Of a stretch of DNA of 64,000 nt, positions 3,053 to 61,433 are shown piece after piece. Source of the stretch: a virus (taxonomy: Duplodnaviria > Heunggongvirae > Uroviricota > Caudoviricetes); the IMG/VR virus record IMGVR_UViG_3300017792_000001, positions 168,697 through 232,696 of that record; one strand, written 5' to 3'. Both the position numbers and the translations under genes were made by a program. The notes beneath the pieces are model-generated. The model searched no databases, was not told the DNA's origin, and worked only from the letters and a program-made list of their open reading frames with translations. Every line of letters starts with the position of its first letter. Position 1 is the stretch's first letter.

Positions 3053-3784
3053 TCAGCTTTTAGCCGCAATGGCGCGCATGTAGTTGATTTCATACGCGCT
3101 GATTCCATAACGACGTGCTAGGGCTTCGGAATCCCCACCTTCGCGCATAGCTTCGCGATAAATCAAAGCCGTCTCAGAGGACAGGATATCATTCAGCCTT
3201 GCACGCTGTTTGTCGTTTAACGGACTACCCTTCAACTTGGCCAGGTCGGCGTTCAACTTCACCAGTGTGTTGCGGCTCGCCATCCAATTGCAGATGCGCT
3301 CCTTGATCACAGATTGGTGGGTCGCACGCGGCAACTGGTAGATGAAGGTCATCAGTTGATTTAGCAAGGTACGCTGGGCTTTGACTTCATCCACTGACAT
3401 TTGAACAATGTCGAATCCCGTGCGGGTTAAGGCCTGGAACTCTAGTTCCTCAAAGTCGAGTTTAAGCGGCAAGCACTTGAACCCGTCAATGTGGAGGTCT
3501 GCACCGATTTTGAAATCCATGTGCTTGAAGTTATAGCCCGACAATGCGATTGGCGTATCGAACACCAAGAAGATCACATTGTCGAAGCTCTTGTCATAGC
3601 TCACGTTTCGGCGCAAGTCCTTAACGCTGAAAAACACCACAAACTCAACCTGCTTTGGCTTTCTTTTTGGCAGGAGCGCGTCTGGCGTTAGCATCAGCAC
3701 TTGGCTTCGCTTTACCTTTCTTTCCTTGTTTAGCCTCACCAGAACTTCGTCCGGGGCGTGGCAACCGAAACTTGCTACTTTCAT
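3053..3784 (-). CDS. Hypothetical protein, possibly HolA(delta)-like clamp-loader accessory subunit
   Basis: 243 aa ORF with GGAG RBS; the function is suggested only by context and the C-terminal LARRYGISAY motif. Confidence 0.55.
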   Translation of the reverse strand: MKVASFGCHAPDEVLVRLNKERKVKRSQVLMLTPDALLPKRKPKQVEFVVFFSVKDLRRNVSYDKSFDNVIFLVFDTPIALSGYNFKHMDFKIGADLHIDGFKCLPLKLDFEELEFQALTRTGFDIVQMSVDEVKAQRTLLNQLMTFIYQLPRATHQSVIKERICNWMASRNTLVKLNADLAKLKGSPLNDKQRARLNDILSSETALIYREAMREGGDSEALARRYGISAYEINYMRAIAAKS

Positions 3785-6083
3785 CGTCGCTCTCCACTAC
3801 TTTAGACACGCCACCTTTCTTCGTCACCGTGATGTAATGGCACTCGCTGTACAAATGCTTGCTCAGCGGAGTTACCAGAAACACGTGTGGCACTAGAGTG
3901 CGCAATGCTGGAATAAACCGTTCAACGAACAGGGAGCGAGTGGTATCGTCCATGTGGCTGTCTGGTTCATCAAGCACGCAGAAGTTGGTACGGCGATCAT
4001 CTTCAACCATGACTAGCATCACCCACATCCAGAGTAGGCGGAAGCAGTCAGACTCAGCACCAGACAACAGGCGCACGTCAGATTCTTTGCCGTTCCCTCG
4101 ATCAACTCGGCAATGCACACCATCTTCTTTGGCGAACAGAGTGAACTTGAAAGGTTCGGCGAATATCAGGTTGGAGTAGCGGTTCATGAGTTGTTCGATC
4201 TGGAACAACACACCGTTTGCAGCCGTGATCTTCAAACCCTTGGCGCTGTAGCCTTTCTCCAGGGACTTGAACATATCACGTTGAGCGATGATTGGCTTAA
4301 TGAGCTCCAGTTTCTCCAGTGCGTCCTTACGTTCGCGTCGGAGTACCTTATACTCACTGGCCTTTGAGCCAAGATTGGAACAGATGTCTTGCGCCTTCGT
4401 GTAACGGCGTTCGATTTTCTTGTACCGAGCTTGAGCGTCACTCAGTTTATTAGACAACGAAACAGCATCAATGGTTCCGTGCTGATTTTCGAGTGATTCC
4501 AAAACGCTATCAATGCGCTGAATCTCGGAATGCGCTTCGAAGATTTCCTCCAGTTGATCCAGTGAATACTTCGGCTCGACGATAACCTTCTCGGGAGCTT
4601 TCAACTTGGACAAACGGGTGGTCAGCTTTTCAACCTGTGTTGCGGCTTCAAACTGGCTTTCGAGTTTGTCGAAGGTGTCACTGTCAGCCGCGTACTGCTT
4701 ACGGCGCTCAACAAAGGCAGCATCGTCAAACTTGATCTTCTTGTCACGCACGCGCACGTAGGCTAACGCCGCATCAAACTGCTCAATGTGGGTTTCCAGC
4801 TTGTCGATGGCTTTCTCTGCCTTCTTGATGTGCTTGCGGATCTTGTCAATCTCGACCTGCTGCATACAAGTTGGGCATTCACCATCGGTGCAGTCATGCA
4901 GAATGGACTTGAGTTGCAGTACGGCTTTATGCTGCACCAGCTCCTCTTCCTGACGACCCTTACCGAACGCAACGGCTACCGGTGCATCTTTACGCTTGAG
5001 ACCAACAGCTTCACACGCGAGTGCCAGTTCTTCCTTGCGCTTCTCCAGAGACTTCCACTCTTGACGGACTTCGTGCAACTCCGTGAGGGCCTTTTCTTCT
5101 GCCTTCAGGTGAGCATTCAGCGCCTTGAGTTTCTTCTTGAGTACAGCGATAGGCTTGGTCTTGCCGAGTTCTTCAACCTGCTGCTCCAGTTGTTTCTTCT
5201 GGGCTTTGTAGGTCTTGAGTTCGGACTGGTATTCTTCCATGTCGCGATGCCACTTGCGTTCTTCCTTTGCACGCTTCAGGTCGATCGGTGGCTTGAGCTT
5301 CTTGCGCTTCGCTTTCAGCTTGTCGTACTGCTCGACAATTGCCAATGCAGCCTTGTATTTCTGGATCTTCGATTGCAGGGTCTTGCTGTCACCACCGAGA
5401 GTCTTGATGACCTCACGGGCTTCGTCCAGCTCTGCCGCACTTTCTTTAGACCAAGCGAGACGTTCCAACAAGCCGTTGATCTTCACCAACTGTTGGTTGA
5501 GGACGTCAAACTCTACCTGCTTGTTCTTAATCTCACCGAGCTTCTTGGTGAAATACTTCTTGAGCTGGTCGTATACGTCCAGACGGAAGATGGAGGTGAT
5601 GTACTGTAGTCGCGCTGCTGGCTTGTCGATCTGGAAGTTCAGAGGACGTTGGCTTTGCAGGTAGACGTAGGAGTAAAATTCTTCTTCGGTGATAGGAAAA
5701 ATCTCGGCAATCTTCGTCTTTTGTAACGGGATCGTCCGAGATTCTATGTCTTTGCCATCTTCTTCAATAACGAACTTGGAACTTGTTTGAGTGATGCTGT
5801 ACGGAACATTGTTGTTCCCCACAAACGCCATCTTAATGCGCGCGGCCGCAGACGTGAGCATATCTTTCTTGCTCTTGGTCTGCGCGAGCGGAGTCGCTTC
5901 ATAACGAAGGTTCGGAATGGACGACAGCAACAGACTTTTACCAGCACCGTTGCTCGTCTCACTCGAAATGCGGCTGTCCTCATTGTGACCACTGATCACG
6001 GTAAAAGGATGCCGGTCTACTGCAAGTCGCACTTTCTTGAAGAGGACGACATTATCCAGCTCAATGTCGGTCACTCTCAGCAT
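3645..6083 (-). CDS. sbcC: SbcC/Rad50-like SMC ATPase
   Basis: Walker A SNGAGKS, coiled coils, zinc hook CPTC, signature LSGAE, Walker B VLDEP. Confidence 0.93.
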   Translation of the reverse strand: MLRVTDIELDNVVLFKKVRLAVDRHPFTVISGHNEDSRISSETSNGAGKSLLLSSIPNLRYEATPLAQTKSKKDMLTSAAARIKMAFVGNNNVPYSITQTSSKFVIEEDGKDIESRTIPLQKTKIAEIFPITEEEFYSYVYLQSQRPLNFQIDKPAARLQYITSIFRLDVYDQLKKYFTKKLGEIKNKQVEFDVLNQQLVKINGLLERLAWSKESAAELDEAREVIKTLGGDSKTLQSKIQKYKAALAIVEQYDKLKAKRKKLKPPIDLKRAKEERKWHRDMEEYQSELKTYKAQKKQLEQQVEELGKTKPIAVLKKKLKALNAHLKAEEKALTELHEVRQEWKSLEKRKEELALACEAVGLKRKDAPVAVAFGKGRQEEELVQHKAVLQLKSILHDCTDGECPTCMQQVEIDKIRKHIKKAEKAIDKLETHIEQFDAALAYVRVRDKKIKFDDAAFVERRKQYAADSDTFDKLESQFEAATQVEKLTTRLSKLKAPEKVIVEPKYSLDQLEEIFEAHSEIQRIDSVLESLENQHGTIDAVSLSNKLSDAQARYKKIERRYTKAQDICSNLGSKASEYKVLRRERKDALEKLELIKPIIAQRDMFKSLEKGYSAKGLKITAANGVLFQIEQLMNRYSNLIFAEPFKFTLFAKEDGVHCRVDRGNGKESDVRLLSGAESDCFRLLWMWVMLVMVEDDRRTNFCVLDEPDSHMDDTTRSLFVERFIPALRTLVPHVFLVTPLSKHLYSECHYITVTKKGGVSKVVESDDESSKFRLPRPGRSSGEAKQGKKGKAKPSADANARRAPAKKKAKAG

Positions 6084-6089
6084 GTTTGA

Positions 6090-7238
6090 TTATTCCGAAT
6101 GGTCGATGATGAACTTGCCCATGTGGGTTTGCAGCAAGACGGCTTCGTCAATTGCGCAACTGTTCATGGCGAGCTCCACGTTGTTGACTACTTCCTGGAG
6201 CAGGATCAGGACTTTCAAGTTGAACTTGATTTCCATCTTCTGTGCAACCGATTCGAACACACGACCGGCGTACGGCGTGAACTTGGCGGTCTTGGTCTTC
6301 GAACCAATGAGGTAGTCGAGCAACATGCGGCTCTTGTACACGATGCCGCGCGGGTTCTGCGCTTTGCGGATGATCGAGATACAGCCCGGCAGGTCACGAT
6401 TGAGTGCGGCTGCAATAACGCTGGCGCAGGCTTTGTCCAGATCAACGGCAGCAGACTCGACGTAGTGCGCGAGTGCGCCCTTCTCTTTCAGGTTCAGTTC
6501 ACCAGACGCTGCGGCGTACATCAGCTTTTCGAGGATCGCCAGGCCGCCACGAACACTACCGTCAGAGAACTGGGCGATCAGCTTGATGGCTTTGGCGCCG
6601 TCTTTACTGTCGATGAACTTCATGCCTTCCAGTTCTGCAACCTGCGTCAGGCGCTTAGCAATCTGTTCTGGTTCGACAGTCTTGAGCGTGATGGTTGTGC
6701 AACGGTCGACGATGGTCTTGAGCAACTTCTCTGGGTTGGTGGTACCAAGAATCCAGATTGTGTGCGGGCTGGGTTCTTCCAGTGGAACCAGAAGCGCCTC
6801 GGCCGACGCACCTGTGAGCTTGTGGGCTTCGTCAACGAAGATGATCCGGTAGTTGGTCATCGGCGCAGAACGACTGCCTTTGATCACGGTACGGATATCT
6901 TCGACTTTACCCTGGGTTGCAGCGTTGATCGTCGTGATGTCCGGGTGCTTTTCGCCCAGCTTGTACGCCATGGAGTCCTTGACGTTCTTGGGATCATCGG
7001 CGTTCATGTACGCAGCAAGAATCCTGGCGAGTGTGGTCTTACCGCAACCAGTGGCACCGCTGAGTAGGATCGCACCAGGGAACTTGCGAGTCTTGATCAT
7101 GCCTTTGATTACGGCGACTTCTTGCTCGTTACCGACCACGTCTTTCAGAGTACGCGGTCGATACTTAACGGCGAGTGACAGCGTTGCAGATGCTGTCTCC
7201 TCAACCTTCTCCTTTTTCGGTTTATCTTTCTTCGCCAC
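6090..7238 (-). CDS. dnaX: DNA polymerase III gamma-like clamp loader ATPase
   Basis: KYRPRTLKDVVG, GATGCGKTT, IIFVDEAHKL, LEEP, TTNPEKL, DGSVR. Confidence 0.92.
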   Translation of the reverse strand: MAKKDKPKKEKVEETASATLSLAVKYRPRTLKDVVGNEQEVAVIKGMIKTRKFPGAILLSGATGCGKTTLARILAAYMNADDPKNVKDSMAYKLGEKHPDITTINAATQGKVEDIRTVIKGSRSAPMTNYRIIFVDEAHKLTGASAEALLVPLEEPSPHTIWILGTTNPEKLLKTIVDRCTTITLKTVEPEQIAKRLTQVAELEGMKFIDSKDGAKAIKLIAQFSDGSVRGGLAILEKLMYAAASGELNLKEKGALAHYVESAAVDLDKACASVIAAALNRDLPGCISIIRKAQNPRGIVYKSRMLLDYLIGSKTKTAKFTPYAGRVFESVAQKMEIKFNLKVLILLQEVVNNVELAMNSCAIDEAVLLQTHMGKFIIDHSE

Positions 7239-7240
7239 GA

Positions 7241-7786: not shown

Positions 7787-7797
7787 GATGTTCTCTC

Positions 7798-8436: not shown

Positions 8437-8438
8437 GA

Positions 8439-9296
8439 TTACTTCCGTTTTTTCTTGGGCAACGGCGGCGCTTCGAGCTGGCCGCTGATCACACGGTTGT
8501 AGATACCGACGACAGACTTGCCGCCATGTGCGTTCCAGACTGGGTCTTCGAGCAGTGCTTCAAAGTGCCCAGCAATACCGCTGTCACCCTTGTGCATGTC
8601 GGTGTGATTGAAAATCTTCACCTGCTCCAAGTAGTCAGCGAACTGGGTACGAATCGGCTGCTTCTGCTTCGGCTTGTTCACGTCATCCCAGCTTGTGCCG
8701 ATGAATTCGTTGAGCATGCCACGAGTGACCCACGGGCTGATCCATTCACGACCCAGGCTGCGGCAATACTTCTTCAACTTGGAAGTCTGGGAAGTAGGGC
8801 CGATCACCTTGTTGAACTTCGGAATGCGGTAGTCGTCGATGCAGTCGCGGTAGTGCATACAGCCAGTCTTCGACAGAGCGAAGTAGATGTCGGCTGCAAG
8901 GCCGCCAGTCATCGAATGCTCTTTGCCTTGGTCGATGCAACGGCGAATAGCCCAGAACGCTTCGACTTCAACCTTGCTGCGGGTCTGGAGCAGATCAACG
9001 TTCGCTACCATGTCGCGCTTGAGCGTATCAAGGCAGCGAGGCAGCAGCACAGGCGAGAACGGAATGCCGAAGACTTGAGCGGTGTTGCGCGCTGATTTGA
9101 AGTCACGGCTCTCGTGGTCTTCCATCGTCACACTGTAGATCGTGATGTCTTTCGGCTTGTGCCCAAGTTCCAGCAGGGAGAACAGTACGGCATGGCTGTC
9201 GAGTCCGCCGGACATCAGGACCCCAAAGGGCCCGTCATGTTTCTCCAGGTTCTTCATCAAAGCCATCTTGATGTTGGGTTTAATGATCTTTCCCAC
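8439..9296 (-). CDS. Asparagine-synthetase-like ATP pyrophosphatase (synthetase domain only)
   Basis: PP-loop SGGLDS; GGLAADIYF resembles GEGADE; SPW resembles the xPF motif; no N-terminal glutaminase domain. Confidence 0.75.
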   Translation of the reverse strand: MGKIIKPNIKMALMKNLEKHDGPFGVLMSGGLDSHAVLFSLLELGHKPKDITIYSVTMEDHESRDFKSARNTAQVFGIPFSPVLLPRCLDTLKRDMVANVDLLQTRSKVEVEAFWAIRRCIDQGKEHSMTGGLAADIYFALSKTGCMHYRDCIDDYRIPKFNKVIGPTSQTSKLKKYCRSLGREWISPWVTRGMLNEFIGTSWDDVNKPKQKQPIRTQFADYLEQVKIFNHTDMHKGDSGIAGHFEALLEDPVWNAHGGKSVVGIYNRVISGQLEAPPLPKKKRK

Positions 9297-9297
9297 G

Positions 9298-10371
9298 TTA
9301 CTGTCCTTTGATCTGGGTGAGTGTCTTGTCCATCAGCTTCACGATGTCACCGGTCATCTTGCGACCAGTCATGTGGAAGGCAAAACACTCGGCGAAGAAT
9401 TCTTCTGGCTTGGTGAGCGCGTACTCGGACGGGTCAGCTTTCGACTCGACGATCGTGGAGCGCTTCGGCCACATGCTGGCAAACTTCTCGCTGTCCTCAG
9501 AGAACAGAATGGCGAGTGACTTGCCGTCGAGCTTGTGGTACTTCTTGTAGTGCGCCAGAACTTCTTTGAACACGCTCTTGGACTCGTCGTCCAGTTCTTT
9601 CTGGAAGTCGCGCATATCGCCGTCTTGATAGCCCAGCAATTCGTCAAGCAGAGACTCCAGGCGCTCTTTCAGGAAGTTGGTCAGTTCGATGCGCTTGTGA
9701 AACATCTTGATCCAGCGCGCCTTGGTACGCGACTCGACCATCTTGTACCAGACAGCATGACCGTATTCGTGATACAGCAGGTACTCGTTCCACTGTGCGT
9801 CTTCAAACGTCTCAGGGAACAGGTCAACCTTGTCGCTGATTTCAGAACCCTTGCGGCGAATCTCGTACATGCCCGCGTACTTGCCACGCTTCGGATAGAC
9901 GCGCATAGCAGTGAACGGGAACACGTCGAGACTGGTTTCGATCATCTGCGCGTAGGTAGACTTCAAGGCTTTCTTGAAGGACTTCATTTCGCGTTCATTC
10001 AGTTCGCGATAGAAGTGGATCGGGCCGTACTTGGTTTCCACCGAGCTGATGTACGGGTTGATCTTCACACCGTATGCAGAGCCAGGCTTTGGCTTGGTGC
10101 CGAGAACTGCAACGAGGTTCTGTTCGTCGAACTCGATGGTCTTCGGTTCGTCGTCGATCAGCGTTGAGTCAATGACTGCACGGCCGCGTTCTGGGTTGAT
10201 CGCCAGACACAGGAAGTTCTTGGTGCCGACCTTGACAATGATGTAGCTGTCTTTCTCGACAGGCATACCACGACCGATCTCGCGGGTCTTCTGCTTCTTG
10301 AGTTTCGGAGCATCGCCGCTTACGTCGATCTTGGCCTTGTCTTTCTTCTTGAGTTTCTTTTCCTTAGCCAT
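9298..10371 (-). CDS. Zincin-like metallopeptidase-domain protein
   Basis: HEYGH plus downstream SEYALTKPEEFFAECF (anthrax-LF-like third-ligand motif). Confidence 0.7.
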   Translation of the reverse strand: MAKEKKLKKKDKAKIDVSGDAPKLKKQKTREIGRGMPVEKDSYIIVKVGTKNFLCLAINPERGRAVIDSTLIDDEPKTIEFDEQNLVAVLGTKPKPGSAYGVKINPYISSVETKYGPIHFYRELNEREMKSFKKALKSTYAQMIETSLDVFPFTAMRVYPKRGKYAGMYEIRRKGSEISDKVDLFPETFEDAQWNEYLLYHEYGHAVWYKMVESRTKARWIKMFHKRIELTNFLKERLESLLDELLGYQDGDMRDFQKELDDESKSVFKEVLAHYKKYHKLDGKSLAILFSEDSEKFASMWPKRSTIVESKADPSEYALTKPEEFFAECFAFHMTGRKMTGDIVKLMDKTLTQIKGQ

Positions 10372-12526: not shown

Positions 12527-12534
12527 GTTGTTTC

Positions 12535-18762: not shown

Positions 18763-18838
18763 TGGTGGGTCGTGCAGGATTCGAACCTGCGACCAATTGG
18801 TTAAAAGCCAACTGCTCTACCAACTGAGCTAACGACCC
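18763..18838 (-). tRNA. tRNA-Lys(UUU)
   Basis: GGGTCGTTAGCTCAGTTGGTAGAGCAGTTGGCTTTTAACCAATTGGTCGCAGGTTCGAATCCTGCACGACCCACCA; full cloverleaf with CCA. Confidence 0.96.
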
Positions 18839-18847
18839 GAACGAGCA

Positions 18848-18919
18848 GGGTCCGTACAAGTTTCCCTGTCAATGCTAAGCAGTCTCACGCACGAAGGCTT
18901 GCTGCTCAACACCGGACCC
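18848..18919 (-). ncRNA. Structured three-way-junction RNA between tRNAs
   Basis: GGGTCCG/CGGACCC closing stem, an 11-bp helix with G-U pairs, and ACAGG-GAAA-CTTGT. Confidence 0.5.
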
Positions 18920-18925
18920 ACAAAA

Positions 18926-19002
18926 TGGCGACACCGAAGGGACTCGAACCCTCGACCCCTAGCGTGACAGGCTAGTGCTCTAACCAACTGAGCTACGGCG
19001 TC
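18926..19002 (-). tRNA. tRNA-Asp(GUC)
   Basis: GACGCCGTAGCTCAGTTGGTTAGAGCACTAGCCTGTCACGCTAGGGGTCGAGGGTTCGAGTCCCTTCGGTGTCGCCA. Confidence 0.95.
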
Positions 19003-19006
19003 TAAA

Positions 19007-19083
19007 TGGTAGGACGTCTGGGATTCGAACCCAGGACCAATGGCTTAAAAGGCCACTGCTCTGACCAACTGAGCTAACGTCCT
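19007..19083 (-). tRNA. tRNA-Lys(UUU), second divergent copy
   Basis: AGGACGTTAGCTCAGTTGGTCAGAGCAGTGGCCTTTTAAGCCATTGGTCCTGGGTTCGAATCCCAGACGTCCTACCA. Confidence 0.95.
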
Positions 19084-19089
19084 ATGAAA

Positions 19090-19166
19090 GGTGGGAACAA
19101 GAGGAATCGAACCTCCATCAGAATGCGACGCGCGCAAACTGCTCTGCCAATATGAGCTACGTTCCC
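19090..19166 (-). tRNA. tRNA-like gene with aberrant anticodon arm (pseudo-tRNA)
   Basis: Good acceptor (GGGAACG/TGTTCCC), D and T arms; anticodon arm non-canonical; ends ACCT. Confidence 0.6.
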
Positions 19167-51048: not shown

Positions 51049-51651
51049 ATGGCTAAGAAAGAAAAAGCTGCCAAAGGCGATAAGAAAGTTCGCAACACTG
51101 CGAATCGCCTGACCCGTGCCGACAAGATCGAAAAGCGCCTGCGTGGCGTCAGCGCCAAGACCTCGTTCAAATCGAAGTCTGCTCTGTTCACCTTCCGTGT
51201 TTTCCGCCTGGCCCCGGTTGCTGTTCACGGCTTCATCCTCGCCGAAAACGCCGACAGCATCCTGCTGCGTCACAAGCGCACCAACGCTTCGAAGCGCATG
51301 GTCGTGAGCCGCATCAGCCACAGCGACATCATCGAGCTTTACGGCACCGTCGGTGAAACTTCCAGCGCGCTGGTCGTGAAAGAAACCCAGATCCACGAAG
51401 TCGTCGGCAAGATCGTCGAAGACAAGGGCGGTGTTATCACCATCCAGACCGCATCCGGCGAAACTGTGAAGTTGTTCCAGAACGCACAGTCGCGCATCGA
51501 AGTCTCCGTTGAAGACGAAGGCGGCAGCGAAGAAGGCGGCGGCAAGAAGTCCAAGAAGTCGAAGGCCGACAAGCCTGAGAAGTCTGGCAAGAAAAAGAAG
51601 AAGGCCAAGCCTGCGGAAGATGATGACGAAGACGACGACCTCGACGACTGA
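51049..51651 (+). CDS. Hypothetical protein with basic N-terminus and K/D-rich tail
   Basis: 200 aa ORF. Confidence 0.8.
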   Translation: MAKKEKAAKGDKKVRNTANRLTRADKIEKRLRGVSAKTSFKSKSALFTFRVFRLAPVAVHGFILAENADSILLRHKRTNASKRMVVSRISHSDIIELYGTVGETSSALVVKETQIHEVVGKIVEDKGGVITIQTASGETVKLFQNAQSRIEVSVEDEGGSEEGGGKKSKKSKADKPEKSGKKKKKAKPAEDDDEDDDLDD

Positions 51652-51766: not shown

Positions 51767-52285
51767 ATGGCTAAGGCAAAAGCAAGCGCGAAGAAGAAAG
51801 TCGGCAAGAAAGGTAGCAAGAAGGACCTGCCGAAGTTCGACCTGACCGGTATGCTCGCCGTTACCCTGCTGTCCTGGCTGCAACAGCTTCAGGAAGCGGG
51901 CGCTGAAACCATCGAAGACGCTATCGACCTGGTCGGTGAAGGCGTCCCGGACACCGACGTCGATGATGACGCGGACGAAGACGACGACGCCGATGAAGAT
52001 GACGGCGACGACGAAGATGACGAAGAAGAGGAGGACGACGAGGAAGACGACGACTCCGACGAAGATGACGACGACGAGGACGATGAGGACTCGGACGACG
52101 ACGAAGATGATGACGAAGACGACGAGGAGGAAGATGATGACTCCGAAGACGACGACGATGACGAGGACGATGAAGAGGAGGACGACGAGGAAGACGACGA
52201 CTCCGATGATGACGATGATGAAGAAGAGGAAGATGACGACGACGAGGATGATGAAGACGACGAAGACGAAGAAGACTTCGACTGA
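51767..52285 (+). CDS. Hyper-acidic protein (about 110-residue D/E tract)
   Basis: GGAG RBS; K-rich N-terminus then poly-D/E with internal repeats. Confidence 0.8.
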   Translation: MAKAKASAKKKVGKKGSKKDLPKFDLTGMLAVTLLSWLQQLQEAGAETIEDAIDLVGEGVPDTDVDDDADEDDDADEDDGDDEDDEEEEDDEEDDDSDEDDDDEDDEDSDDDEDDDEDDEEEDDDSEDDDDDEDDEEEDDEEDDDSDDDDDEEEEDDDDEDDEDDEDEEDFD

Positions 52286-52483: not shown

Positions 52484-53089
52484 ATGGCTAAGTCCGACGT
52501 TACCATCAACAAGAAATCCGAACTGGGTCGCCTGCGCAAAGAAGAACGCGCGCTGAAAGGCACCGTTGGCCAACTGGAAAAAGCGCTCAAGTCCGCGCAA
52601 GACGCGCTGAAAGGCGTTTCGACCCAGATCACCGCAGTAGACAAACTGTCCGCTGACGGCGCCCCGGCCAAGGCCGAGAAAGGCAGCAAGAAGTCCAAGA
52701 AAGCCGACAAAGCTGAAAAGCCGGCCAAGGGCGACAAGAAGTCGAAGAAAGCTGACAAGGCTGAAAAAGCCGAGAAGCCTTCCAAGAAGGACAAGAAAGC
52801 CAAGGCAGACAAAGCTGAAAAGCCTGCCAAAGAAGGCAAGAAGTCCAAGAAAGTGAAAGAAGAAAAGGCTGAAAAGCCGTCGAAGAAGGACAAGAAGGCC
52901 AAGGCTGAAAAAGCTGAAAAGCCTTCGAAAAAGGACAAGAAAGCAGCCAAGGCCGACAAAGCCGAAAAAGGCGGCAAGAAGTCCAAAGCTGAAAAGCCTG
53001 CCAAAGAAGGCAAGAAGTCCAAGAAAGAAGGCAAGAAGTCGAAAGCCAAAGACGATGACTTCGATGACTTCGACGACCTCGAAGACTGA
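52484..53089 (+). CDS. Lys-rich repeat protein (coiled coil plus AEKPAK/SKKDKK repeats)
   Basis: AGGA RBS; tandem KAEKP repeats; short acidic C-terminus. Confidence 0.8.
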   Translation: MAKSDVTINKKSELGRLRKEERALKGTVGQLEKALKSAQDALKGVSTQITAVDKLSADGAPAKAEKGSKKSKKADKAEKPAKGDKKSKKADKAEKAEKPSKKDKKAKADKAEKPAKEGKKSKKVKEEKAEKPSKKDKKAKAEKAEKPSKKDKKAAKADKAEKGGKKSKAEKPAKEGKKSKKEGKKSKAKDDDFDDFDDLED

Positions 53090-54312: not shown

Positions 54313-55029
54313 ATGGATATCTACCCAATGCGAAATTTCTACAGCTGCGGCTGCTACGTCGCAGATGATGTGCCGGTCATCAGTCGCTGCGGGGAACACA
54401 ACGGCTTCGTGATCTGCCGAACCAACTGTCGCGTTACAAACCCACGTCAGTTGATCATTGGTAAGCGCAAGCGGTTGAAGATCATCCATCACAACCTGTA
54501 TGACGTGCTGTCGATGTTGAAGCAACCCGTGGATCTGGTGTTCGCATACCCAGAGCACGACCTGTTCATGATGCCGCACATGCTCACACCGTTCGGTTTC
54601 AGGAATAGCCGTGTCGAGGTGTTCAAACACGTTGCACGCCTGCTCAAGCCCGATGGCAAGGCAGTTTTCTTGATCGACCCAATCGACCTAGCGACTGTGT
54701 TGTACCAGGCCAAGCTGCGCAAGTTTGAAGTGCATACGCGCTTCTTTCCAGTGGTCATTCGACCTGAGCCACTTCGGTGGAGTAAGTCGCTTGAGAAACA
54801 CAAGGTCTATAAAATTGCCGTGGGGTTAAACACTGGACCCCTTCCTCAGCTCCGTCTTGACGACCTCACGCCGTTCTTTGATGCGCTGAACGTTCCAGAC
54901 GCGGGCAGGATATTGGACCTTTCCTGTATTCACATCGGTGCTGTCAAGAAGGCAAGACCGAATTCGAAAATTGTAGGGATATGCGAAGATGCAAACCGTT
55001 ACCGAAAATTCATTGAAGCCAACAGTTGA
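54313..55029 (+). CDS. Degenerate DNA methyltransferase-like protein
   Basis: VDLVFAYPEH ~ DLIFTDPPY; RLLKPDG; ILDLSC ~ VLDPF.G. Confidence 0.5.
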   Translation: MDIYPMRNFYSCGCYVADDVPVISRCGEHNGFVICRTNCRVTNPRQLIIGKRKRLKIIHHNLYDVLSMLKQPVDLVFAYPEHDLFMMPHMLTPFGFRNSRVEVFKHVARLLKPDGKAVFLIDPIDLATVLYQAKLRKFEVHTRFFPVVIRPEPLRWSKSLEKHKVYKIAVGLNTGPLPQLRLDDLTPFFDALNVPDAGRILDLSCIHIGAVKKARPNSKIVGICEDANRYRKFIEANS

Positions 55030-55810
55030 ACAGACAGCCCTGTTGTGGGAATTGGTGCTACCCGATCCAGCTTTCGACGAAGCTGTAGAGCGCTGCATCG
55101 CCAAAGGCCGTGAAGACCTGGCGCTGTACGAAGGCACCAAGACCTACGCATACCAGATGACGCTGTGCGTGATCACCTCGATTTTCAACGAAGCCATCAA
55201 GCTCGTTCACTTCGACGGTGAGTTGCTGCACATCTTCATGAAGAACAAACTGCCGCCGAACCACATCATGTTGCTCAAGCGCCTGTTTGACTCCAAGATG
55301 TGGCTGCCTGACAAGGTGCTGCACGACATTCTCGGTGGCGAGCAAGCCCTGTTCTCTGTGCGCGAACAAGTAGGTGACGACGTACTCGAAACGACCTACA
55401 CAGGGCTCACGTCCTACGAAGGTCCAACCGACTACACCGAAATCAAGGATCTGCTGATCGCTGCCAACGTCCTGGACAACCACAACACGGTTGCTCTTGT
55501 GTACGAAGTCGGCGGTCTGCGTGAAACACCGTACGAAAATGCTCGGTACGACAACCTGACCTCGCGGTTCATTGGCGGTACAGAACGGTTGATCGACACC
55601 TTGATGTTTGCCCGTGAACTCCAGGGTGATCCCTTAAAGCGTAAAGCAGTTGTAGCAGAGGCTGAACGTTACTTCGCCGCGACGAAGTTTAAGGTAGTCC
55701 CAAAGCAAACTACCCAGATGAAGCTCGACGATGCGCGTAAAGAGGCGAAAGAAGCCGCGAAGCCATTCAAGACGCTCAAGAAGATGAAGAAGGCTGCCAA
55801 GGCCAAGTAG
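54989..55810 (+). CDS. Hypothetical protein
   Basis: 273 aa, K-rich C-terminus. Confidence 0.7.
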   Translation: MQTVTENSLKPTVEQTALLWELVLPDPAFDEAVERCIAKGREDLALYEGTKTYAYQMTLCVITSIFNEAIKLVHFDGELLHIFMKNKLPPNHIMLLKRLFDSKMWLPDKVLHDILGGEQALFSVREQVGDDVLETTYTGLTSYEGPTDYTEIKDLLIAANVLDNHNTVALVYEVGGLRETPYENARYDNLTSRFIGGTERLIDTLMFARELQGDPLKRKAVVAEAERYFAATKFKVVPKQTTQMKLDDARKEAKEAAKPFKTLKKMKKAAKAK

Positions 55811-55819: not shown

Positions 55820-56476
55820 ATGGCGAAGAAGCCCTACAAAGGCATCACAAAAAGCCGCAGCAACACCAGCGGCCGTAAGTCTGCTGCAAAGCGTGAAGCT
55901 GAGAAAACGAAGGAACGCATGACGGAGCGCAAAGCCGTTCTGCATACGTCGAAGCGTAGCGGCAAGGAGCGACTCGCCAAAGGTGTTCCCTACAAACTGA
56001 AACGTCTGGAGGCAATGCCTGTACGGCAGCTTCCAGCGACAGCAGCCAATCAGAAAGGGCGCACGCTGCGTCAACTCATTCGTGGCACACCGAAGCTGTT
56101 CATCAACAACGCGGTGGACGTTGAAGCCAAGAAGATTGAGCGCAAGAAGACCAAGACCGGACGCCCCGTCATTATGGGGCAGATGGTTACTTGGGACCCG
56201 TGGCGTAAAGACCGTGTGCGCCGTGTGCATGATGCGTACATCATCGGTCTCGACGATGACCCAGACAAGCCGATCAACCGCCACCAGAAAGTCTTGGTGC
56301 AATGTTCGTGCGAGAACTTCGTCTACGTCTGGGAGTATGCGAATGCCACGGTTGGTGCGAGTCGCCTGATCTACTCGAACGGTGAGCCACCAAACTTCAC
56401 GAACCCGAAGCTCGCTGTTGGTCTATGCAAGCACTTGATCGCGCTCGCCAAGATCATCATGGAGAAAGACGTATGA
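55820..56476 (+). CDS. SWIM zinc-finger protein
   Basis: CSCENF...LCKHL; basic N-terminus. Confidence 0.75.
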   Translation: MAKKPYKGITKSRSNTSGRKSAAKREAEKTKERMTERKAVLHTSKRSGKERLAKGVPYKLKRLEAMPVRQLPATAANQKGRTLRQLIRGTPKLFINNAVDVEAKKIERKKTKTGRPVIMGQMVTWDPWRKDRVRRVHDAYIIGLDDDPDKPINRHQKVLVQCSCENFVYVWEYANATVGASRLIYSNGEPPNFTNPKLAVGLCKHLIALAKIIMEKDV

Positions 56477-57078: not shown

Positions 57079-57081
57079 AGT

Positions 57082-58601: not shown

Positions 58602-58627
58602 CATATACAAACCAGGAGTCATCAAAC

Positions 58628-59902
58628 ATGAGTGGATTTGGAAACATCCAGCCACGCACAGGTAACAAGGATTCTGTTCGTCTGGAAGAAGTCATTAAGA
58701 TGCACAAATGGCCCGCCGACGAATGGAGCCAAGTGCGTTTCATGCCAGGCAAGATTCTGCCAGTTAAGCGTCACTGGATCAGCATCATCGCAGGCAAAGA
58801 CAAGAAAGAAATCACGATCCCTCGTTATTGCCTGGCGTTCGACAACAACAACGAGAACGAGCCGCGTAAAGACGCGAAGGGCAAGCCGATCAAATGCCCG
58901 TACTGCGACCTGGCTCACGGCCAAGACGCAAGCGCTCGTTACGAGTTCTTCTACCTGGCCAACGCGATCATCCGTGAAGTGCAGGAAGATATGCCTGCTC
59001 GCGCCAAGAAGATCGAGCGCACCAAGGAAGAAAAGAAGACTGGCTTCAAGGACATCAGATCGAAGTCCTGGACCCCGGTAGAAGTTTGTCGTATCACCTC
59101 GACGGTCGCGAACCGCATCAAAGAGCTGGGCGACGGCAACTTCGTCAAGAAGGGTGGCGAGAAGAAAGCCTTCGACGTTACTCACCCGAAATACGGTATC
59201 GACATCCGCGTCAAGTACAAGCCGAAAGCATCCGGCACCGAGAAGTACAGCGCTGACAAAGACGACCGCACTCCGCTGACCGACGACGAGTTGAAGTACC
59301 TGATCTGGCGCCTCGACGAAACCCTGATCGACGTGACCGGCCGCATGGAACCTGCGCAGGCTCTCGAAGACTTCAAGCGCATGGAAGTTGTCGGTGCTGA
59401 CGAAGTTGACGACGACAGCGAAGGCTACAGCCTGGGCGACGACGACGGCAAGAAGAAAAAGAAGAAGGGCGACAAGAAGAAAAAGTCGGCCGCCTTCGAT
59501 GATGACGATGACGATGACGAGCCTAAGAAAGGCAAGAAATCATCCAAGTCCTCGAAGTCTTCCAAGAAGTCGAAAGAAGATGATGCTCCGAAGAAAAAGA
59601 AAAAGGCCAAGCCTGCTTTCTCTGACGACGATGATGACGACGATGACGAGCCGAAGAAAAGCAAGAAATCTTCCGGCGACAAGAAGTCCAAGTCGAAAGA
59701 CAAGGTGAAGTCGAAGAAATCTTCTTCTGACGACGCACCGAAGAAGAAAAAGAAGGCCAAGAAAGAGGAAGACGAGCCGAAGAAGAAAAAGAAATCTTCT
59801 GACAGCAAGAAGTCCTCGAAGTCTTCCAAGGACAAGAAGGCCGACAAGCCAAGCTCCAAGAAAGGCAAGAAGAAATCTGCCTGGGACGATGACGACGAAT
59901 AA
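58628..59902 (+). CDS. Single-stranded DNA-binding protein (gp32-like) with long K/D-block tail
   Basis: VRFMP, CPYC, FDVTHPKYGID; directly upstream of RecA. Confidence 0.6.
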   Translation: MSGFGNIQPRTGNKDSVRLEEVIKMHKWPADEWSQVRFMPGKILPVKRHWISIIAGKDKKEITIPRYCLAFDNNNENEPRKDAKGKPIKCPYCDLAHGQDASARYEFFYLANAIIREVQEDMPARAKKIERTKEEKKTGFKDIRSKSWTPVEVCRITSTVANRIKELGDGNFVKKGGEKKAFDVTHPKYGIDIRVKYKPKASGTEKYSADKDDRTPLTDDELKYLIWRLDETLIDVTGRMEPAQALEDFKRMEVVGADEVDDDSEGYSLGDDDGKKKKKKGDKKKKSAAFDDDDDDDEPKKGKKSSKSSKSSKKSKEDDAPKKKKKAKPAFSDDDDDDDDEPKKSKKSSGDKKSKSKDKVKSKKSSSDDAPKKKKKAKKEEDEPKKKKKSSDSKKSSKSSKDKKADKPSSKKGKKKSAWDDDDE

Positions 59903-59951
59903 GTAGGGAGGGTGGGCTTCGGCTCACCCATTCTCGTTTCTGGAGATACGC

Positions 59952-61433
59952 ATGGCTAAGTCGAAAAAGAAGGACGTCGCTGTTATTGACGTCTCGGGAG
60001 ATTCAGTCCCGTCGAAGAAGAAAGGCAAGAAGGGTAAAGCCCTTGCCGAGGTTGCACCGTTCAATCCCTATGCTCACTTGGGCACTGAGATTGACGCGAT
60101 GGAAAAGAAGTTCGGCCTGACGTCGATGGCAGTGAGCGAATCGGAAGATCGCCTGTCCACCGGCCTCCTGTCGATTGACGTGAACCTCGCTGGTGGTCTG
60201 CTGCCGGGTGGCTGGTACACGTTCTTCGGTGGTGAACAGTCGTGTAAGTCCACGCTCGCCACCACAGCAATGGGTTCGATTGCAACTAACGCCACGTTCC
60301 AAGGCATTGGTGCAATGTTCGACTACGAAGGTTCGTTCCAGGCTGACTACGCCGAGAACATCTTCAAGTACATGAACCACGGCAAGCGCATTTCGGTTGA
60401 TAACGTCTTCGGCGTGAAAGACCAGAAGGGTTGGGTTATCCCACCGCGCGTTCGCTACTACGCACCGTCTGTTGGTGAAGACTTCTACAACTGGCTCGCC
60501 AAGCTTGAGAAGACTCTGCCAGACCTGATTCAAGAAGATGGCAAGTTCTACTACATCTTCGAGAACACCAAGGTCAACCAGAAGGCGCTGTCCGGCAAGT
60601 ACGACAAGGACTTCTTCCGTCGTGAAGGTAAGTTCCGTCTGCCTGCCCCGAACGGTATGCCGCAAGCGGTCGTACTCGTTGACTCGTATCCTGCGATGGT
60701 CCCTAAACAGACCGACGACAAGGACGAGGGCGACAAGTCCCTGGGTTCACAAGCCCGTATGCACGCTGCAAACTTGCCGCGTGTGAAAGGCGCAATGCGT
60801 TCGAAGCGGATCATCGTGCTGGGTATCAACCAGTTGCGTGACATCCCGATGGCCATGTACGGCCCGACCGAACAAGAACCTGGCGGTAAAGCGCTGCGCT
60901 TCTACTCCGACTGTCGTTTGAAGATGACTTCGGTCAGCGTTCCCCACGCCAAAGGCCAGTTCGAGGAAGAAGACACAATCTCCGGTGAAGGTGCTGACAA
61001 GTACCGCTACCTGAAGTGCAAGGTGCAGAAGAACAAACTCGGTGGCCCACAAGCCGCTGAAATCTCGCTGCGCATTCGCGTTTCGGACGCCGATGGTAAC
61101 GCCTCCGGTTTCTGCCGGTGCTGGGACGCATACCAGTACCTGAAGATGACTGGGCAACTCGGTGGCAATCGCAAGAAGCTCAAGTTCCTGACTGGCCCGC
61201 TCGAAGGCATCACTGTCTCCTGGCTCCAGTTCAAGGCCCTGATCGACGGCGATGCAGCGATGATCAAGAAAGGCTGCGAGAAGCTGAAAGTGAAACCGTT
61301 CCGCTTGTACGAATGGTGTCGCAAACAGGTTGTCGAGAAGCAAGCCTATCCTCTGCTCAAGGCTGCCATCAAAGCCGAGAACACCAAGTCCAAGCAGCCT
61401 GCGGAAATCGCTGAGGGTGCTGACGAGGAGTGA
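59952..61433 (+). CDS. recA: RecA/UvsX-like recombinase
   Basis: LSTGLLSIDVNLAGG, GGEQSCKST, DYEGS, LVDS, INQLR, PGGKALRFYS, KNK. Confidence 0.92.
   Translation: MAKSKKKDVAVIDVSGDSVPSKKKGKKGKALAEVAPFNPYAHLGTEIDAMEKKFGLTSMAVSESEDRLSTGLLSIDVNLAGGLLPGGWYTFFGGEQSCKSTLATTAMGSIATNATFQGIGAMFDYEGSFQADYAENIFKYMNHGKRISVDNVFGVKDQKGWVIPPRVRYYAPSVGEDFYNWLAKLEKTLPDLIQEDGKFYYIFENTKVNQKALSGKYDKDFFRREGKFRLPAPNGMPQAVVLVDSYPAMVPKQTDDKDEGDKSLGSQARMHAANLPRVKGAMRSKRIIVLGINQLRDIPMAMYGPTEQEPGGKALRFYSDCRLKMTSVSVPHAKGQFEEEDTISGEGADKYRYLKCKVQKNKLGGPQAAEISLRIRVSDADGNASGFCRCWDAYQYLKMTGQLGGNRKKLKFLTGPLEGITVSWLQFKALIDGDAAMIKKGCEKLKVKPFRLYEWCRKQVVEKQAYPLLKAAIKAENTKSKQPAEIAEGADEE

What the first reader, a model, noticed from the sequence alone, without database searches (positions are those of the whole stretch)
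3645..61433. Systematic Lys-rich, NLS-like terminal tags on DNA-metabolism proteins
Seen N-terminal tags: DnaX MAKKDKPKKEK, zincin MAKEKKLKKKDKAK, primase MAKKQKR, GyrB MAKKAKK...TKKRKK, GyrA MAAKKKVSKKAGK, exonuclease MKTKKK, RecA MAKSKKK...SKKKGKKGK, SWIM MAKKPYK. Seen C-terminal tags: SbcC PAKKKAKAG, Asn-synthetase-like PKKKRK, RuvC PKKKRKTKAKK, MTase KRKPSK...KGK, TS RKEKK. PKKKRK, the SV40 NLS core, appears twice. Typical bacterial orthologues lack such tails, and most accessory and membrane genes here lack them too. Inference: a charge-based address tag that partitions enzymes into a phage DNA compartment or condensate.
Basis: partly seen in the sequence, partly recalled or inferred. Interest (0 to 1): 0.78.

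Follow-up and report, generated by a model that had tools for sequence, protein, structure and literature searches.

The report
Lysine tails on phage DNA enzymes
A giant Pseudomonas phage related to PaBG has bolted short, floppy, positively charged lysine tails onto about half of its DNA-handling enzymes and none of its virion proteins; the tails most likely hold the enzymes on DNA, and a true address code for a replication droplet is possible but unproven.

Summary
The window lies in a complete 277.6-kb PaBG-like jumbo phage.

- **Enrichment:** 14 of 32 nucleic-acid enzymes are tagged, against 0 of 39 virion or lysis proteins, 3 of 29 other enzymes and 28 of 253 unknowns (Fisher p = 3.7e-6). 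PaBG repeats the pattern (16 of 36; p = 1.7e-8).
- **Control:** in T4, 0 of 20 DNA proteins reach 5 Lys per 10-mer.
- **Extra appendages:** the tags extend beyond the cores of solved bacterial GyrB and DnaX. They are kept in place and charge while sequence and length drift, and Lys and Arg interchange.
- **Modular:** tags switch ends between orthologues (RuvC, primase).

Best reading: modular polybasic tethers to DNA. They sit beside proteins with polyacidic tails, a blocky polyampholyte SSB tail and an H1-like protein. A condensate or address function is not excluded and not shown.

New here: a peptide motif, IDVSGD, embedded in tags of unrelated proteins.

This scan noted similar tags before on four other genomes (AI notes). 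I found nothing in print.

The parts
1..956 (-). Gene 224 (346 aa; starts 84 nt before the window): very basic protein with a C-terminal stretch of about 130 aa made of Lys-Ala-Pro repeats, like a histone H1 tail
   Evidence: Sequence printed. Its PaBG orthologue is 56% identical. It has no Pfam hit at E<=1e-5.
3645..6083 (-). SbcC-like ATPase (812 aa) with a C-terminal Lys tag (...APAKKKAKAG; low-coordinate end of the gene)
   Evidence: PaBG annotates the orthologue as SbcC and it also carries a basic tail. Lu11 lacks this tail.
6090..7238 (-). DnaX-type clamp loader (382 aa, GTG start) with the N-terminal tag MAKKDKPKKEK
   Evidence: Pfam DNA_pol3_delta2 matches from residue 37. Query residue 22 aligns to residue 6 of E. 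coli gamma/tau. The tag is kept in PaBG and Lu11.
8439..9296 (-). Asn-synthase-like enzyme (285 aa) with the C-terminal tag ...LPKKKRK
   Evidence: Pfam Asn_synthase at E 1.2e-7. The nearest PaBG protein, 34% identical, does not keep the tag.
9298..10371 (-). Zn-peptidase (357 aa). N-terminal module of Lys block, IDVSGD, Lys block, followed by a conserved Met at the start of the core
   Evidence: The PHROG 'peptidase' profile matches from residue 36. Of 29 relatives, 22 are tagged, 15 carry the motif and 7 are short forms without the extension. A Met just before the core is kept in 19 of 22 tagged relatives.
18763..19166 (-). The genome's only tRNA genes: Lys(UUU) x2, Asp(GUC), Ala(CGC)
   Evidence: PaBG carries Lys x2, Asp, Ala and Thr. 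Lys codon use inside tags does not differ from elsewhere.
27744..28388 (+). RuvC-like resolvase (214 aa as called) with the C-terminal tag ...APKKKRKTKAKKCAA
   Evidence: AF2 model has pLDDT 89.5. The last 25 or so residues have no secondary structure and pLDDT 65 and 57. Of 32 relatives, 21 have a C-terminal basic tag, 1 an N-terminal tag and 10 none.
30071..31105 (-). DnaG-type primase (344 aa) with the short N-terminal tag MAKKQKR, below my threshold
   Evidence: Pfam Zn_ribbon_DnaG and Toprim. PaBG has a longer basic N-end. Lu11 has no N-tag but a C-terminal ...PKKKKKPKQK.
33391..35436 (+). Topo II/GyrB-like subunit (681 aa) with N-terminal tag MAKKAKK...TKKRKK
   Evidence: Query residues 26-34 align to residues 6-14 of solved GyrB chains. 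The tag is kept in PaBG and longer in Lu11.
35436..37025 (+). Topo II/GyrA-like subunit (529 aa) with N-terminal tag MAAKKKVSKKAGKVKEK
   Evidence: The Pfam DNA_topoisoIV match starts at residue 65. PaBG and Lu11 keep a tag of different sequence.
42245..43150 (+). 5'-3' exonuclease (301 aa) with N-terminal MKTKKKEE
   Evidence: Pfam 5_3_exonuc_N matches from residue 10. The tag is absent in PaBG and Lu11.
51049..51651 (+). Gene 288 (200 aa): Lys N-tag, beta domain (residues 47-154), Lys-rich linker, acidic tip ...DDDEDDDLDD
   Evidence: There are 58 family representatives, and the 32 whose ends I printed mostly share this architecture. Fold searches were inconclusive.
51767..52285 (+). Gene 289 (172 aa): Lys N-tag, about 40 ordered-looking residues, then about 115 residues of almost pure Asp/Glu
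   Evidence: The same layout is found in PaBG and Lu11.
52484..53089 (+). Gene 290 (201 aa): N-terminal helical part, about 130 aa of K/A/E/P/S/D repeats, acidic tip DDDFDDFDDLED
   Evidence: Kept in PaBG and Lu11.
54989..55810 (+). Gene 294 (273 aa, unknown) with C-terminal tag ...KTLKKMKKAAKAK
   Evidence: The PaBG orthologue ends in a basic but different tail.
55820..56476 (+).
   Evidence: Here the sequence itself is conserved: the PaBG orthologue is 76% identical overall and the tag is 80% identical. Pfam gives no SWIM hit.
58628..59902 (+). SSB (424 aa): core of about 250 aa plus a tail of about 170 aa in which poly-Lys and poly-Asp blocks alternate, ending ...SAWDDDDE
   Evidence: PaBG annotates the orthologue as SSB. 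PaBG, Lu11 and Dickeya phage AD1 have the same kind of tail.
59952..61433 (+). RecA/UvsX-like recombinase (493 aa): N-terminal Lys block, IDVSGD, Lys block; acidic C-end
   Evidence: Pfam RecA. In 120 relatives, the extension before the conserved core is 12-108 aa long in the 85 that could be anchored. At least 4 Lys per 10-mer occur in 93 of 120, and the motif in 16 of 120.
63292..64000 (+). Gene 302 (279 aa; runs 131 nt past the window end): ends in ...RIDVSGD at the very C-terminus
   Evidence: PHROG names it 'DNA topoisomerase'. PaBG and the IMG/VR locus L028 end in ISVSGD.

Best explanation
The tags are short, intrinsically disordered polybasic appendages that act as modular electrostatic tethers to DNA, or more generally to polyanions. 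Fused to either end of an enzyme, they raise its non-specific affinity for DNA. That would keep the phage's replication, recombination and topology enzymes concentrated and processive on the phage DNA pool.

They work beside a second set of charged tails in the same gene block. These are the acidic tips and polyacidic tails of genes 288, 289 and 290, SSB, DnaB and RecA. Such tails could compete with DNA for the tags and so regulate or chaperone them.

Shown here: the tags exist, lie outside the cores, are enriched on DNA enzymes, are kept by selection for charge and not sequence, and are portable between ends. Inferred: DNA binding, concentration on phage DNA, and interplay with the acidic tails.
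For: **Enrichment.**
- 14 of 32 nucleic-acid proteins are tagged, against 0 of 39 virion/lysis proteins. PaBG repeats this (16 of 36 against 0 of 41).
- 24 of 77 genes wholly inside the window are tagged, against 21 of 276 outside it.

**Extra to the core.**
- GyrB and DnaX homology to solved bacterial chains starts after the tag.
- Pfam and PHROG matches start after the tags.
- The RuvC tail is unstructured in the AF2 model.

**Selected for composition.**
- Tag identity to PaBG is 0.45 against 0.69 for the rest of the protein. Gap fraction is 0.17 against 0.03 (16 tag/protein pairs).
- 93 of 120 RecA relatives keep a Lys-rich extension of 12-108 aa.
- Arg replaces Lys in some lineages.

**Modular.**
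- The RuvC tag is C-terminal here, in PaBG and in 21 of 32 relatives. It is N-terminal in Lu11 and 1 relative, and absent in 10.
- The primase tag is N-terminal here and C-terminal in Lu11.
- 7 of 29 peptidase relatives lack the extension.

**Not general to phage replisomes.** 0 of 20 T4 DNA proteins reach 5 Lys per 10-mer, although T4 has 9.5% Lys.

**Precedent.**
- Lysine repeats at the C-end of Streptomyces topoisomerase I stabilise the enzyme-DNA complex and give processivity (PMC5714199, abstract).
- The basic N-domain of the phi29 terminal protein binds DNA non-specifically and places the replication machinery on the nucleoid (PMC4974454, passages).
Against: - No DNA-binding or localisation data exist for any of these tags.
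- 18 of 32 nucleic-acid proteins manage without a tag, including ligase, clamp, sigma factor and topo IB.
- Some tagged proteins are not obviously DNA enzymes: the Zn-peptidase, the Asn-synthase-like enzyme and a NADAR-domain protein.
- 28 tagged proteins are of unknown function.
- A conserved peptide motif (IDVSGD) inside some tags is not needed for plain DNA binding and hints at a specific protein partner.
- A non-specific tether would not by itself distinguish phage DNA from host DNA.
- Tagged and untagged nucleic-acid proteins do not differ significantly in core charge (p = 0.13).
Confidence: 0.55

Rival explanations
1. Address code for a phase-separated replication zone. The Lys tags are client signals that partition enzymes into a coacervate. 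The coacervate would be built from phage DNA, the blocky polyampholyte SSB tail, the H1-like protein (gene 224) and the polyacidic or acid-tipped proteins (genes 288-290).
For: - Complementary polyelectrolyte tails are crowded into one module. The SSB tail alternates poly-Lys and poly-Asp blocks over about 170 aa. Gene 289 has about 115 aa of Asp/Glu. Gene 290 has about 130 aa of K/A/E/P repeats. Gene 224 has an H1-like repeat tail.
- A Lys N-tag and an acidic C-tail occur in the same protein 4 times, against 0.78 expected.
- The layouts are kept in PaBG, Lu11 and AD1.
- Tags also sit on proteins that are not obvious DNA enzymes.
- E. coli SSB is reported to phase-separate through its tail (PMC7584906, search listing and start of abstract only).
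Against: - No call bears on localisation or phase behaviour.
- The review of jumbo phages that I searched has no occurrence of 'condensate' or 'phase separation' (PMC13282480).
- DNA tethering alone predicts the same sequence pattern.
- There is no tubulin/PhuZ match, and Pfam scans gave no sign of a shell system.
Confidence: 0.22
2. Protein-protein docking. The tags are receptors for the acidic tips of SSB-like hub proteins (SSB, genes 288 and 290, DnaB), in the way partner proteins bind the acidic tip of bacterial SSB. The IDVSGD motif would dock on a further hub such as the sliding clamp.
For: - Most of the 32 members of the gene 288 family whose ends I printed end in an acidic tip that closes with a hydrophobic residue.
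- SSB, gene 290 and DnaB end the same way.
- IDVSGD occurs 4 times at protein ends, against about 0.005 expected, with differing synonymous codons.
- It recurs in relatives of RecA (16 of 120), the peptidase (15 of 29) and gene 302.
Against: - No partner was identified.
- The motif is missing from most tagged proteins.
- Fuzzy charge-charge contacts cannot be told apart from DNA binding by sequence.
Confidence: 0.12
3. Packaging signal. The basic tails load the proteins into the capsid with the DNA, for injection.
For: - In PaBG the 221-kDa helicase-like protein is a virion band (Table 1 of PMC7412058). By its size I take it to be the giant SNF2 helicase, whose orthologue here ends in ...APKKK.
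- Gene 217 lies among late genes. It carries several Lys clusters and the IDVSGD motif.
Against: - The other 13 PaBG virion bands are tail, capsid or unknown proteins. None is named as RecA, gyrase, clamp loader, primase or SSB. Only Coomassie-visible bands were analysed.
- 0 of 39 structural proteins carry a tag.
Confidence: 0.05
4. By-product of expression or composition. Lys codons after the start codon would aid translation, or the tags would reflect chance in a Lys-rich proteome or wrong start codons.
For: - 19 of 353 proteins start with MAK.
- RefSeq annotates the PaBG peptidase from the internal Met, without the tag.
Against: - C-terminal tags cannot help initiation.
- The tags extend 10-45 residues.
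- None of the 19 MAK starts is a structural protein.
- Lys codon choice in tags matches the rest of the genome (AAG 215, AAA 105 against 3848 and 1688).
- Independent gene calls in metagenomes include the tags.
- A peptide motif with varied codons lies inside the tags.
- T4, with more Lys, has no such tags.
Confidence: 0.03

Closest known systems
Lysine-repeat C-terminal domain of Streptomyces/actinobacterial topoisomerase I (PMC5714199, abstract read)
   Same: A terminal run of lysine repeats on a DNA enzyme, absent from E. coli homologues and ending in acidic residues. It was shown to stabilise the enzyme-DNA complex and give processivity.
   Different: That case is one enzyme in a bacterial lineage. 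Here about 15 unrelated enzymes of one phage carry such tails, at either end, with end-swapping between orthologues and with dedicated polyacidic partner proteins next door.
NLS-like basic N-terminal domain of the phi29-type terminal proteins (PMC4974454, passages)
   Same: A phage replication protein with a basic region that resembles a eukaryotic NLS. It binds DNA non-specifically, places the replication machinery on the nucleoid and is needed for efficient replication.
   Different: That is a single folded, helical domain on one protein, which recruits the polymerase through protein contacts. Here each enzyme carries its own disordered tail.
Bacterial SSB architecture: DNA-binding core, disordered linker, acidic tip, with reported phase separation (PMC7293020 and PMC7584906; search listings and starts of abstracts only)
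   Same: SSB and genes 288 and 290 here have a core, a low-complexity linker and an acidic tip.
   Different: The linkers here are strongly charged. In SSB they are blocky polyampholytes of poly-Lys and poly-Asp, and the clients carry polybasic tails.
Protein import into the chimallivirus phage nucleus (review PMC13282480, passages)
   Same: A jumbo phage sorts its DNA enzymes to the place where its DNA is.
   Different: Import there is said not to rely on terminal signals but on surface patches read by Imp1/PicA. This phage belongs to Baikalvirus-like phages and has a sigma factor. It has no tubulin match, and its Pfam scans listed no multisubunit RNA polymerase family.
Classical monopartite nuclear localisation signal (SV40 type)
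   Same: PKKKRK occurs twice. The tags are short, terminal, portable and basic.
   Different: No importin system is known in bacteria (recalled). The likeness follows from composition. Most tags are longer and looser than an NLS.

Membership tests
Polybasic DNA-tethering tails (actinobacterial TopA type) | Run of Lys-rich low-complexity sequence at a protein terminus | tested here: met
   At least 4 Lys per 10-mer within 30 residues of an end in 14 of 32 nucleic-acid proteins.
Polybasic DNA-tethering tails (actinobacterial TopA type) | Tail lies outside the conserved catalytic core and is missing from standard homologues | tested here: met
   GyrB and DnaX alignments to solved chains start after the tag. 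T4 orthologues are untagged. Short untagged forms exist for RuvC (10 of 32) and the peptidase (7 of 29).
Polybasic DNA-tethering tails (actinobacterial TopA type) | Tail binds DNA and raises complex stability or processivity | not testable with these tools
   This needs EMSA or single-molecule assays with and without the tail.
Classical NLS (importin-alpha dependent) | K-K/R-x-K/R core in an exposed region | tested here: met
   PKKKRK occurs twice and there are many KKKK runs. The RuvC tail is unstructured in the model.
Classical NLS (importin-alpha dependent) | A karyopherin receptor and a membrane-bound nucleus in the host | not tested
   The host is taken to be a Pseudomonas, because the nearest relative PaBG infects P. 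aeruginosa. No search for a receptor was run.
Chimalliviridae phage-nucleus system | PhuZ tubulin | tested here: not met
   A six-frame search of the whole genome with PF00091 gave 0 matches, while 13 of 14 control genomes matched.
Chimalliviridae phage-nucleus system | Chimallin shell protein and Imp1/PicA import factor | not tested
   I had no profile or reference sequence to hand. The Pfam scans of all 353 proteins listed no such family.
Chimalliviridae phage-nucleus system | Cargo chosen by terminal signal peptides | tested here: not met
   [quoted passage not shown] Terminal tags are therefore not a feature of that system.
SSB-type hub architecture (core + disordered linker + acidic tip) | Folded core followed by a low-complexity linker and a short acidic C-terminal tip | tested here: met
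   Seen in SSB and genes 288 and 290. AF2 of gene 288 gives a beta domain at residues 47-154 with residues 160-185 below pLDDT 50. Most of the 32 family members whose ends I printed share the tip.
SSB-type hub architecture (core + disordered linker + acidic tip) | OB-fold DNA-binding core (for gene 288) | tested here: inconclusive
   Foldseek gave no match at E<=0.001. VIA-align gave best Z 6.5, to Hfq/Sm/SH3-like small barrels, which is below the level the tool calls meaningful.

The most novel reading that the evidence does not exclude
The PaBG/Lu11 clade runs an electrostatic sorting system. Portable polybasic tags mark clients. In a subset, a specific peptide motif (hydrophobic-D-V-S-G-D) flanked by Lys blocks is added.

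The other components would be:
- a blocky polyampholyte SSB tail and an H1-like DNA coat as scaffold;
- a polyacidic protein (gene 289) as chaperone or gatekeeper.

Together they would form a membrane-less and shell-less replication compartment. This would be a second way, independent of the chimallin nucleus, for a jumbo phage to separate its DNA metabolism from the host.
Probability: 0.2. Interest if true: 0.85.

Novelty: new variant of a known kind. Interest (0 to 1): 0.6.

Why it matters
Lysine tails that hold single enzymes on DNA are known. A whole replisome carrying interchangeable charge tags, kept across a large clade of jumbo phages and paired with polyacidic partners, is not in the papers I could search.

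It offers a simple, testable route to how phages without a protein shell organise replication in space. It also gives short portable peptides that might be used to send cargo to phage DNA.

The embedded IDVSGD motif gives a concrete handle, a peptide bait, for finding a specific receptor. That would decide between 'sticks to DNA' and 'is addressed'.

Tried and rejected
**Chance or composition.** Rejected by the class contrast, the PaBG replicate and the T4 control.

**Wrong start codons.**
- Most N-tagged genes have a GGAG-like site upstream.
- PaBG GenBank starts agree with mine for RecA, GyrA, GyrB, DnaX, primase, RuvC and SSB.
- The exception is the PaBG peptidase, annotated from the internal Met. 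Relatives and the conserved motif argue that the long form is real. An untagged isoform is possible, because the Met is kept in 19 of 22 tagged relatives.

**Special Lys codons or tRNA-driven effect.** Lys codon use inside tags is the same as elsewhere. The Lys, Asp and Ala tRNAs fit the tails' composition but are weak evidence.

**Acidic cores compensated by tags.** No significant difference was found.

**Function of gene 288.** The ESM Atlas gave no lead. Foldseek and VIA-align found only weak likeness to small barrels.

**PHROGs on 16 tagged or neighbouring proteins.** Almost all were 'unknown function'.

**Clamp-docking test for the IDVSGD motif.** I tried to submit a complex-prediction job with two copies of the beta clamp plus RecA residues 1-45. 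The queue was full at every attempt, so the job never ran and says nothing.

**Paralogy of genes 224 and 41,** which share a similar C-end. There is none.

**Literature.**
- 'lysine-rich' with 'jumbo phage' gave 1 irrelevant paper.
- 'jumbo phage' with 'phase separation', 'replication' and 'condensate' gave 7 papers, 5 listed, none on this clade.
- 'Lu11', 'PaBG' and 'nucleus-forming' gave 16 papers; none of the 15 listed showed, by title or start of abstract, any cell biology of these phages.
- The PaBG paper has no occurrence of 'nuclear locali', 'histone', 'nucleus' or 'compartment'.
- The Iyer/Aravind-type survey has nothing on such tails.

I did not see the supplementary tables of the PaBG paper. 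They may hold annotation notes.


Full report
**What the DNA is.** The window is bases 168,697-232,696 of a single 277,601-bp virus record with direct terminal repeats, rated complete. Its G+C is 53.6%. The nearest named relative is Pseudomonas phage PaBG (genus Baikalvirus), at 77% nucleotide identity over the two topoisomerase II genes. A simple caller of my own gave 353 genes covering 93% of the genome. Of these, 224 have a PaBG protein match at a mean identity of 54%. More distant relatives by RecA are HRDY3, Lu11, NCTB and the Dickeya/Erwinia Alexandravirus-like phages. The window holds the replication and recombination block.

**The observation.** I defined a tag as at least 4 Lys in some 10-mer within the first or last 30 residues. 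By that rule 10 of the 13 quoted examples pass. The primase N-end, the 'MTase' C-end and the 'TS' C-end have only 3 Lys each. PKKKRK occurs twice.

- Lys is 6.8% of all residues. Windows with at least 4 Lys make up 7.1% of first-15 stretches, 5.9% of last-15 stretches and 3.1% of 4804 internal 15-mers.
- Of 43 dense clusters (at least 5 Lys per 10-mer), 18 touch an end, against 8.6 expected (p = 8e-4). In PaBG it is 19 of 51 against 10.6.
- Ends are therefore favoured about twofold, but many Lys clusters are internal, chiefly inside long charged tails such as that of SSB.

**Which proteins carry them.** Classes were assigned from the PaBG GenBank annotation carried over by blastp, plus Pfam scans of all 353 proteins.

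| Class | Tagged, this phage | Tagged, PaBG |
|---|---|---|
| Nucleic-acid-acting | 14 of 32 | 16 of 36 |
| Other enzymes | 3 of 29 | 2 of 20 |
| Virion/lysis | 0 of 39 | 0 of 41 |
| Unknown | 28 of 253 | 16 of 217 |

- Fisher's test of the nucleic-acid class against the rest gives p = 3.7e-6 here and p = 1.7e-8 in PaBG.
- Inside the window 24 of 77 genes are tagged, against 21 of 276 outside it.
- Outside the window, DNA polymerase I (C-end) and DnaB (Lys run near the C-end) are tagged. The 2004-aa SNF2 helicase ends in ...APKKK but stays below my threshold.
- Untagged nucleic-acid proteins include ligase, beta clamp, sigma factor, topo IB, SbcD, the UvsW-like helicase and SprT-like. 'Systematic' is therefore too strong.

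**Are they unusual?** The first 50 kb of T4 holds most of its replication genes and has 9.5% Lys. There, 0 of 20 DNA proteins reach 5 Lys per 10-mer and 5 of 20 reach 4, through scattered lysines rather than runs. Here 8 of 32 reach 5. Against solved structures, GyrB residues 26-34 align with residues 6-14 of bacterial GyrB, and DnaX residue 22 aligns with residue 6 of E. coli gamma/tau. The tags are thus extra N-terminal pieces. Pfam and PHROG matches likewise begin after the tags. An AlphaFold model of RuvC, built on 26 aligned sequences, has pLDDT 89.5. Its core is confident, and the last 25 or so residues have no secondary structure and pLDDT 65 and 57.

**Evolution of the tags.**
- DnaX, the Zn-peptidase, GyrB, GyrA, RecA, SSB, DnaB and genes 288-290 keep a tag in PaBG and in Lu11, which is 35-65% identical. 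The sequence and length of the tag differ.
- Over 16 tag/protein pairs, identity to PaBG is 0.45 in the tag against 0.69 in the rest. Gap fraction is 0.17 against 0.03.
- In 120 RecA relatives (93-42% identity), the extension before the conserved core is 12-108 residues long, median 37, in the 85 that could be anchored. Of the 120, 93 have at least 4 Lys per 10-mer and 59 at least 5. Some lineages use Arg instead.
- Tags move. RuvC carries its tag at the C-end here, in PaBG and in 21 of 32 relatives. It is at the N-end in Lu11 and 1 relative, and 10 relatives have none.
- Primase is tagged at the N-end here and in PaBG, but at the C-end in Lu11.
- Seven of 29 peptidase relatives start directly at the core.
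- The SbcC and polymerase I tails are absent in Lu11. The exonuclease tag is absent in both PaBG and Lu11.

Together these features describe a portable appendage selected for positive charge.

**The neighbourhood of opposite charge.**
- Genes 288, 289 and 290 each begin with MAK. Genes 288 and 289 carry a Lys N-tag, and all three end in acid.
- Gene 289 is about 115 residues of almost pure Asp/Glu after a short ordered-looking part.
- Gene 290 has about 130 residues of K/A/E/P/S/D repeats and a DDDFDDFDDLED tip.
- Gene 288 has a beta domain, a Lys-rich linker and an acidic tip. This layout recurs in most of the 32 family members whose ends I printed, out of 58 representatives.
- SSB has a tail of about 170 residues with alternating poly-Lys and poly-Asp blocks. 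DnaB and RecA end in acid.
- A Lys N-tag and an acidic C-tail coincide in 4 proteins, against 0.78 expected.
- At the window's left edge, gene 224 has a Lys-Ala-Pro repeat tail of about 130 residues, like histone H1.
- The genome's only tRNAs are Lys x2, Asp and Ala. Lys codon choice in tags is ordinary, however.

**A motif inside the tags.** The exact peptide IDVSGD occurs four times at protein ends:
- after a basic stretch at the N-end of gene 217;
- between two Lys blocks at the N-ends of the Zn-peptidase and of RecA;
- as the very last residues of gene 302.

LDVSGD also occurs once internally. From the composition I expect about 0.005 occurrences. The synonymous codons differ between copies, so the peptide and not the DNA is conserved. 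Variants recur in PaBG and Lu11, in 16 of 120 RecA relatives, in 15 of 29 peptidase relatives, and at the C-end of a gene 302 relative. I could not find its partner. The one complex prediction I tried could not be queued.

**How it most likely works.** The simplest mechanism that fits everything shown is a polybasic disordered tether. It adds non-specific affinity for DNA, and so local concentration and processivity, to whichever enzyme it is fused to, at either end.

- There is direct experimental precedent for lysine repeats on Streptomyces topoisomerase I (PMC5714199, abstract).
- There is also precedent for a basic, NLS-like domain that places phi29 replication on the nucleoid (PMC4974454, passages).
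- The acidic tails next door could compete with DNA for the tags, acting as chaperones, regulators or hub contacts.

All of this beyond the sequence pattern is inference.

The blocky SSB tail, the polyacidic protein, the H1-like protein and the embedded motif are what one would expect of such a system, but no result here tests localisation.

It is not the known phage nucleus. There is no tubulin match. The phage has a sigma factor, and the Pfam scans listed no multisubunit RNA polymerase family. Nuclear import in chimalliviruses is said not to use terminal signals (PMC13282480).

The packaging rival has little support. Of the 14 virion bands reported for PaBG, only the 221-kDa helicase-like protein, which by its size I take to be the giant SNF2 helicase, belongs to this group (PMC7412058, Table 1).

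**Novelty.** My literature searches found no description of these tags. This scan has noted the same kind of tags on four other genomes, described in those notes as relatives of PaBG and Lu11 and an uncultured phage, with similar conclusions. Those are AI notes and not independent evidence.

Added here:
- the replicated class statistics and the T4 control;
- end-switching between orthologues;
- Lys/Arg exchange;
- the gain and loss counts;
- the IDVSGD motif;
- the possible tagged and untagged peptidase isoforms.

I rate it a new variant of a known kind.

Noticed in passing
window 9298-10371 (-), 59952-61433 (+), 63292-64000 (+, gene ends 131 nt past the window), 26509-27633 (-); L011:12078-12869 (-): The peptide IDVSGD (once LDVSGD) recurs in five unrelated proteins, four times at a protein end and usually between Lys blocks. 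Synonymous codons differ between copies. Variants occur in PaBG, Lu11 and metagenomic relatives. Its partner is unknown.
   Followed up: partly
window 1-956 (-), gene continues 84 nt before the window: A 346-aa very basic protein whose last 130 or so residues are Lys-Ala-Pro repeats, like histone H1 or, from recall, Pseudomonas AlgP. It may coat phage DNA.
   Followed up: partly
window 58628-59902 (+): The SSB has a tail of about 170 residues with alternating poly-Lys and poly-Asp blocks (a blocky polyampholyte). PaBG, Lu11 and Dickeya phage AD1 have the same kind of tail.
   Followed up: partly
window 18763-19166 (-): The genome's only four tRNA genes are Lys(UUU) x2, Asp(GUC) and Ala(CGC). 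These are the residues that dominate the charged tails. PaBG has the same set plus Thr.
   Followed up: partly
window 9298-10371 (-): The peptidase tag is followed by a Met at the start of the core, kept in 19 of 22 tagged relatives. Short relatives and the RefSeq PaBG annotation start at that Met. Tagged and untagged isoforms from one gene are possible.
   Followed up: partly
window 7798-14909 (-): A run of genes includes a GNAT acetyltransferase, a PLP-enzyme-like protein, a thymidylate-synthase-like protein and a 506-aa unknown protein. Most have no PaBG match. They sit beside an Asn-synthase-like gene and may form a strain-specific DNA or nucleotide modification island.
   Followed up: no
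window 18155-18523 (-): [quoted passage not shown] The real capsid gene lies elsewhere in the genome.
   Followed up: no
window 22842-23504 (-); L009:4560-5090 (-); L001:17755-18225 (+): Pfam matches to anti-defence families: Tad2-like (anti-Thoeris), Acb1 (anti-CBASS) and the Acb2/Tad1 hairpin domain.
   Followed up: no
L008:13772-14485 (+) and L008:14567-14965 (+): Thymidylate synthase is split into two adjacent ORFs matching the N- and C-halves of the Pfam profile. This may reflect an intron or other intervening element.
   Followed up: no
L014:14664-16340 (+): A eukaryotic-type topoisomerase IB catalytic domain (Pfam Topoisom_I, E 1.3e-14), as already noted in print for PaBG and Lu11.
   Followed up: no
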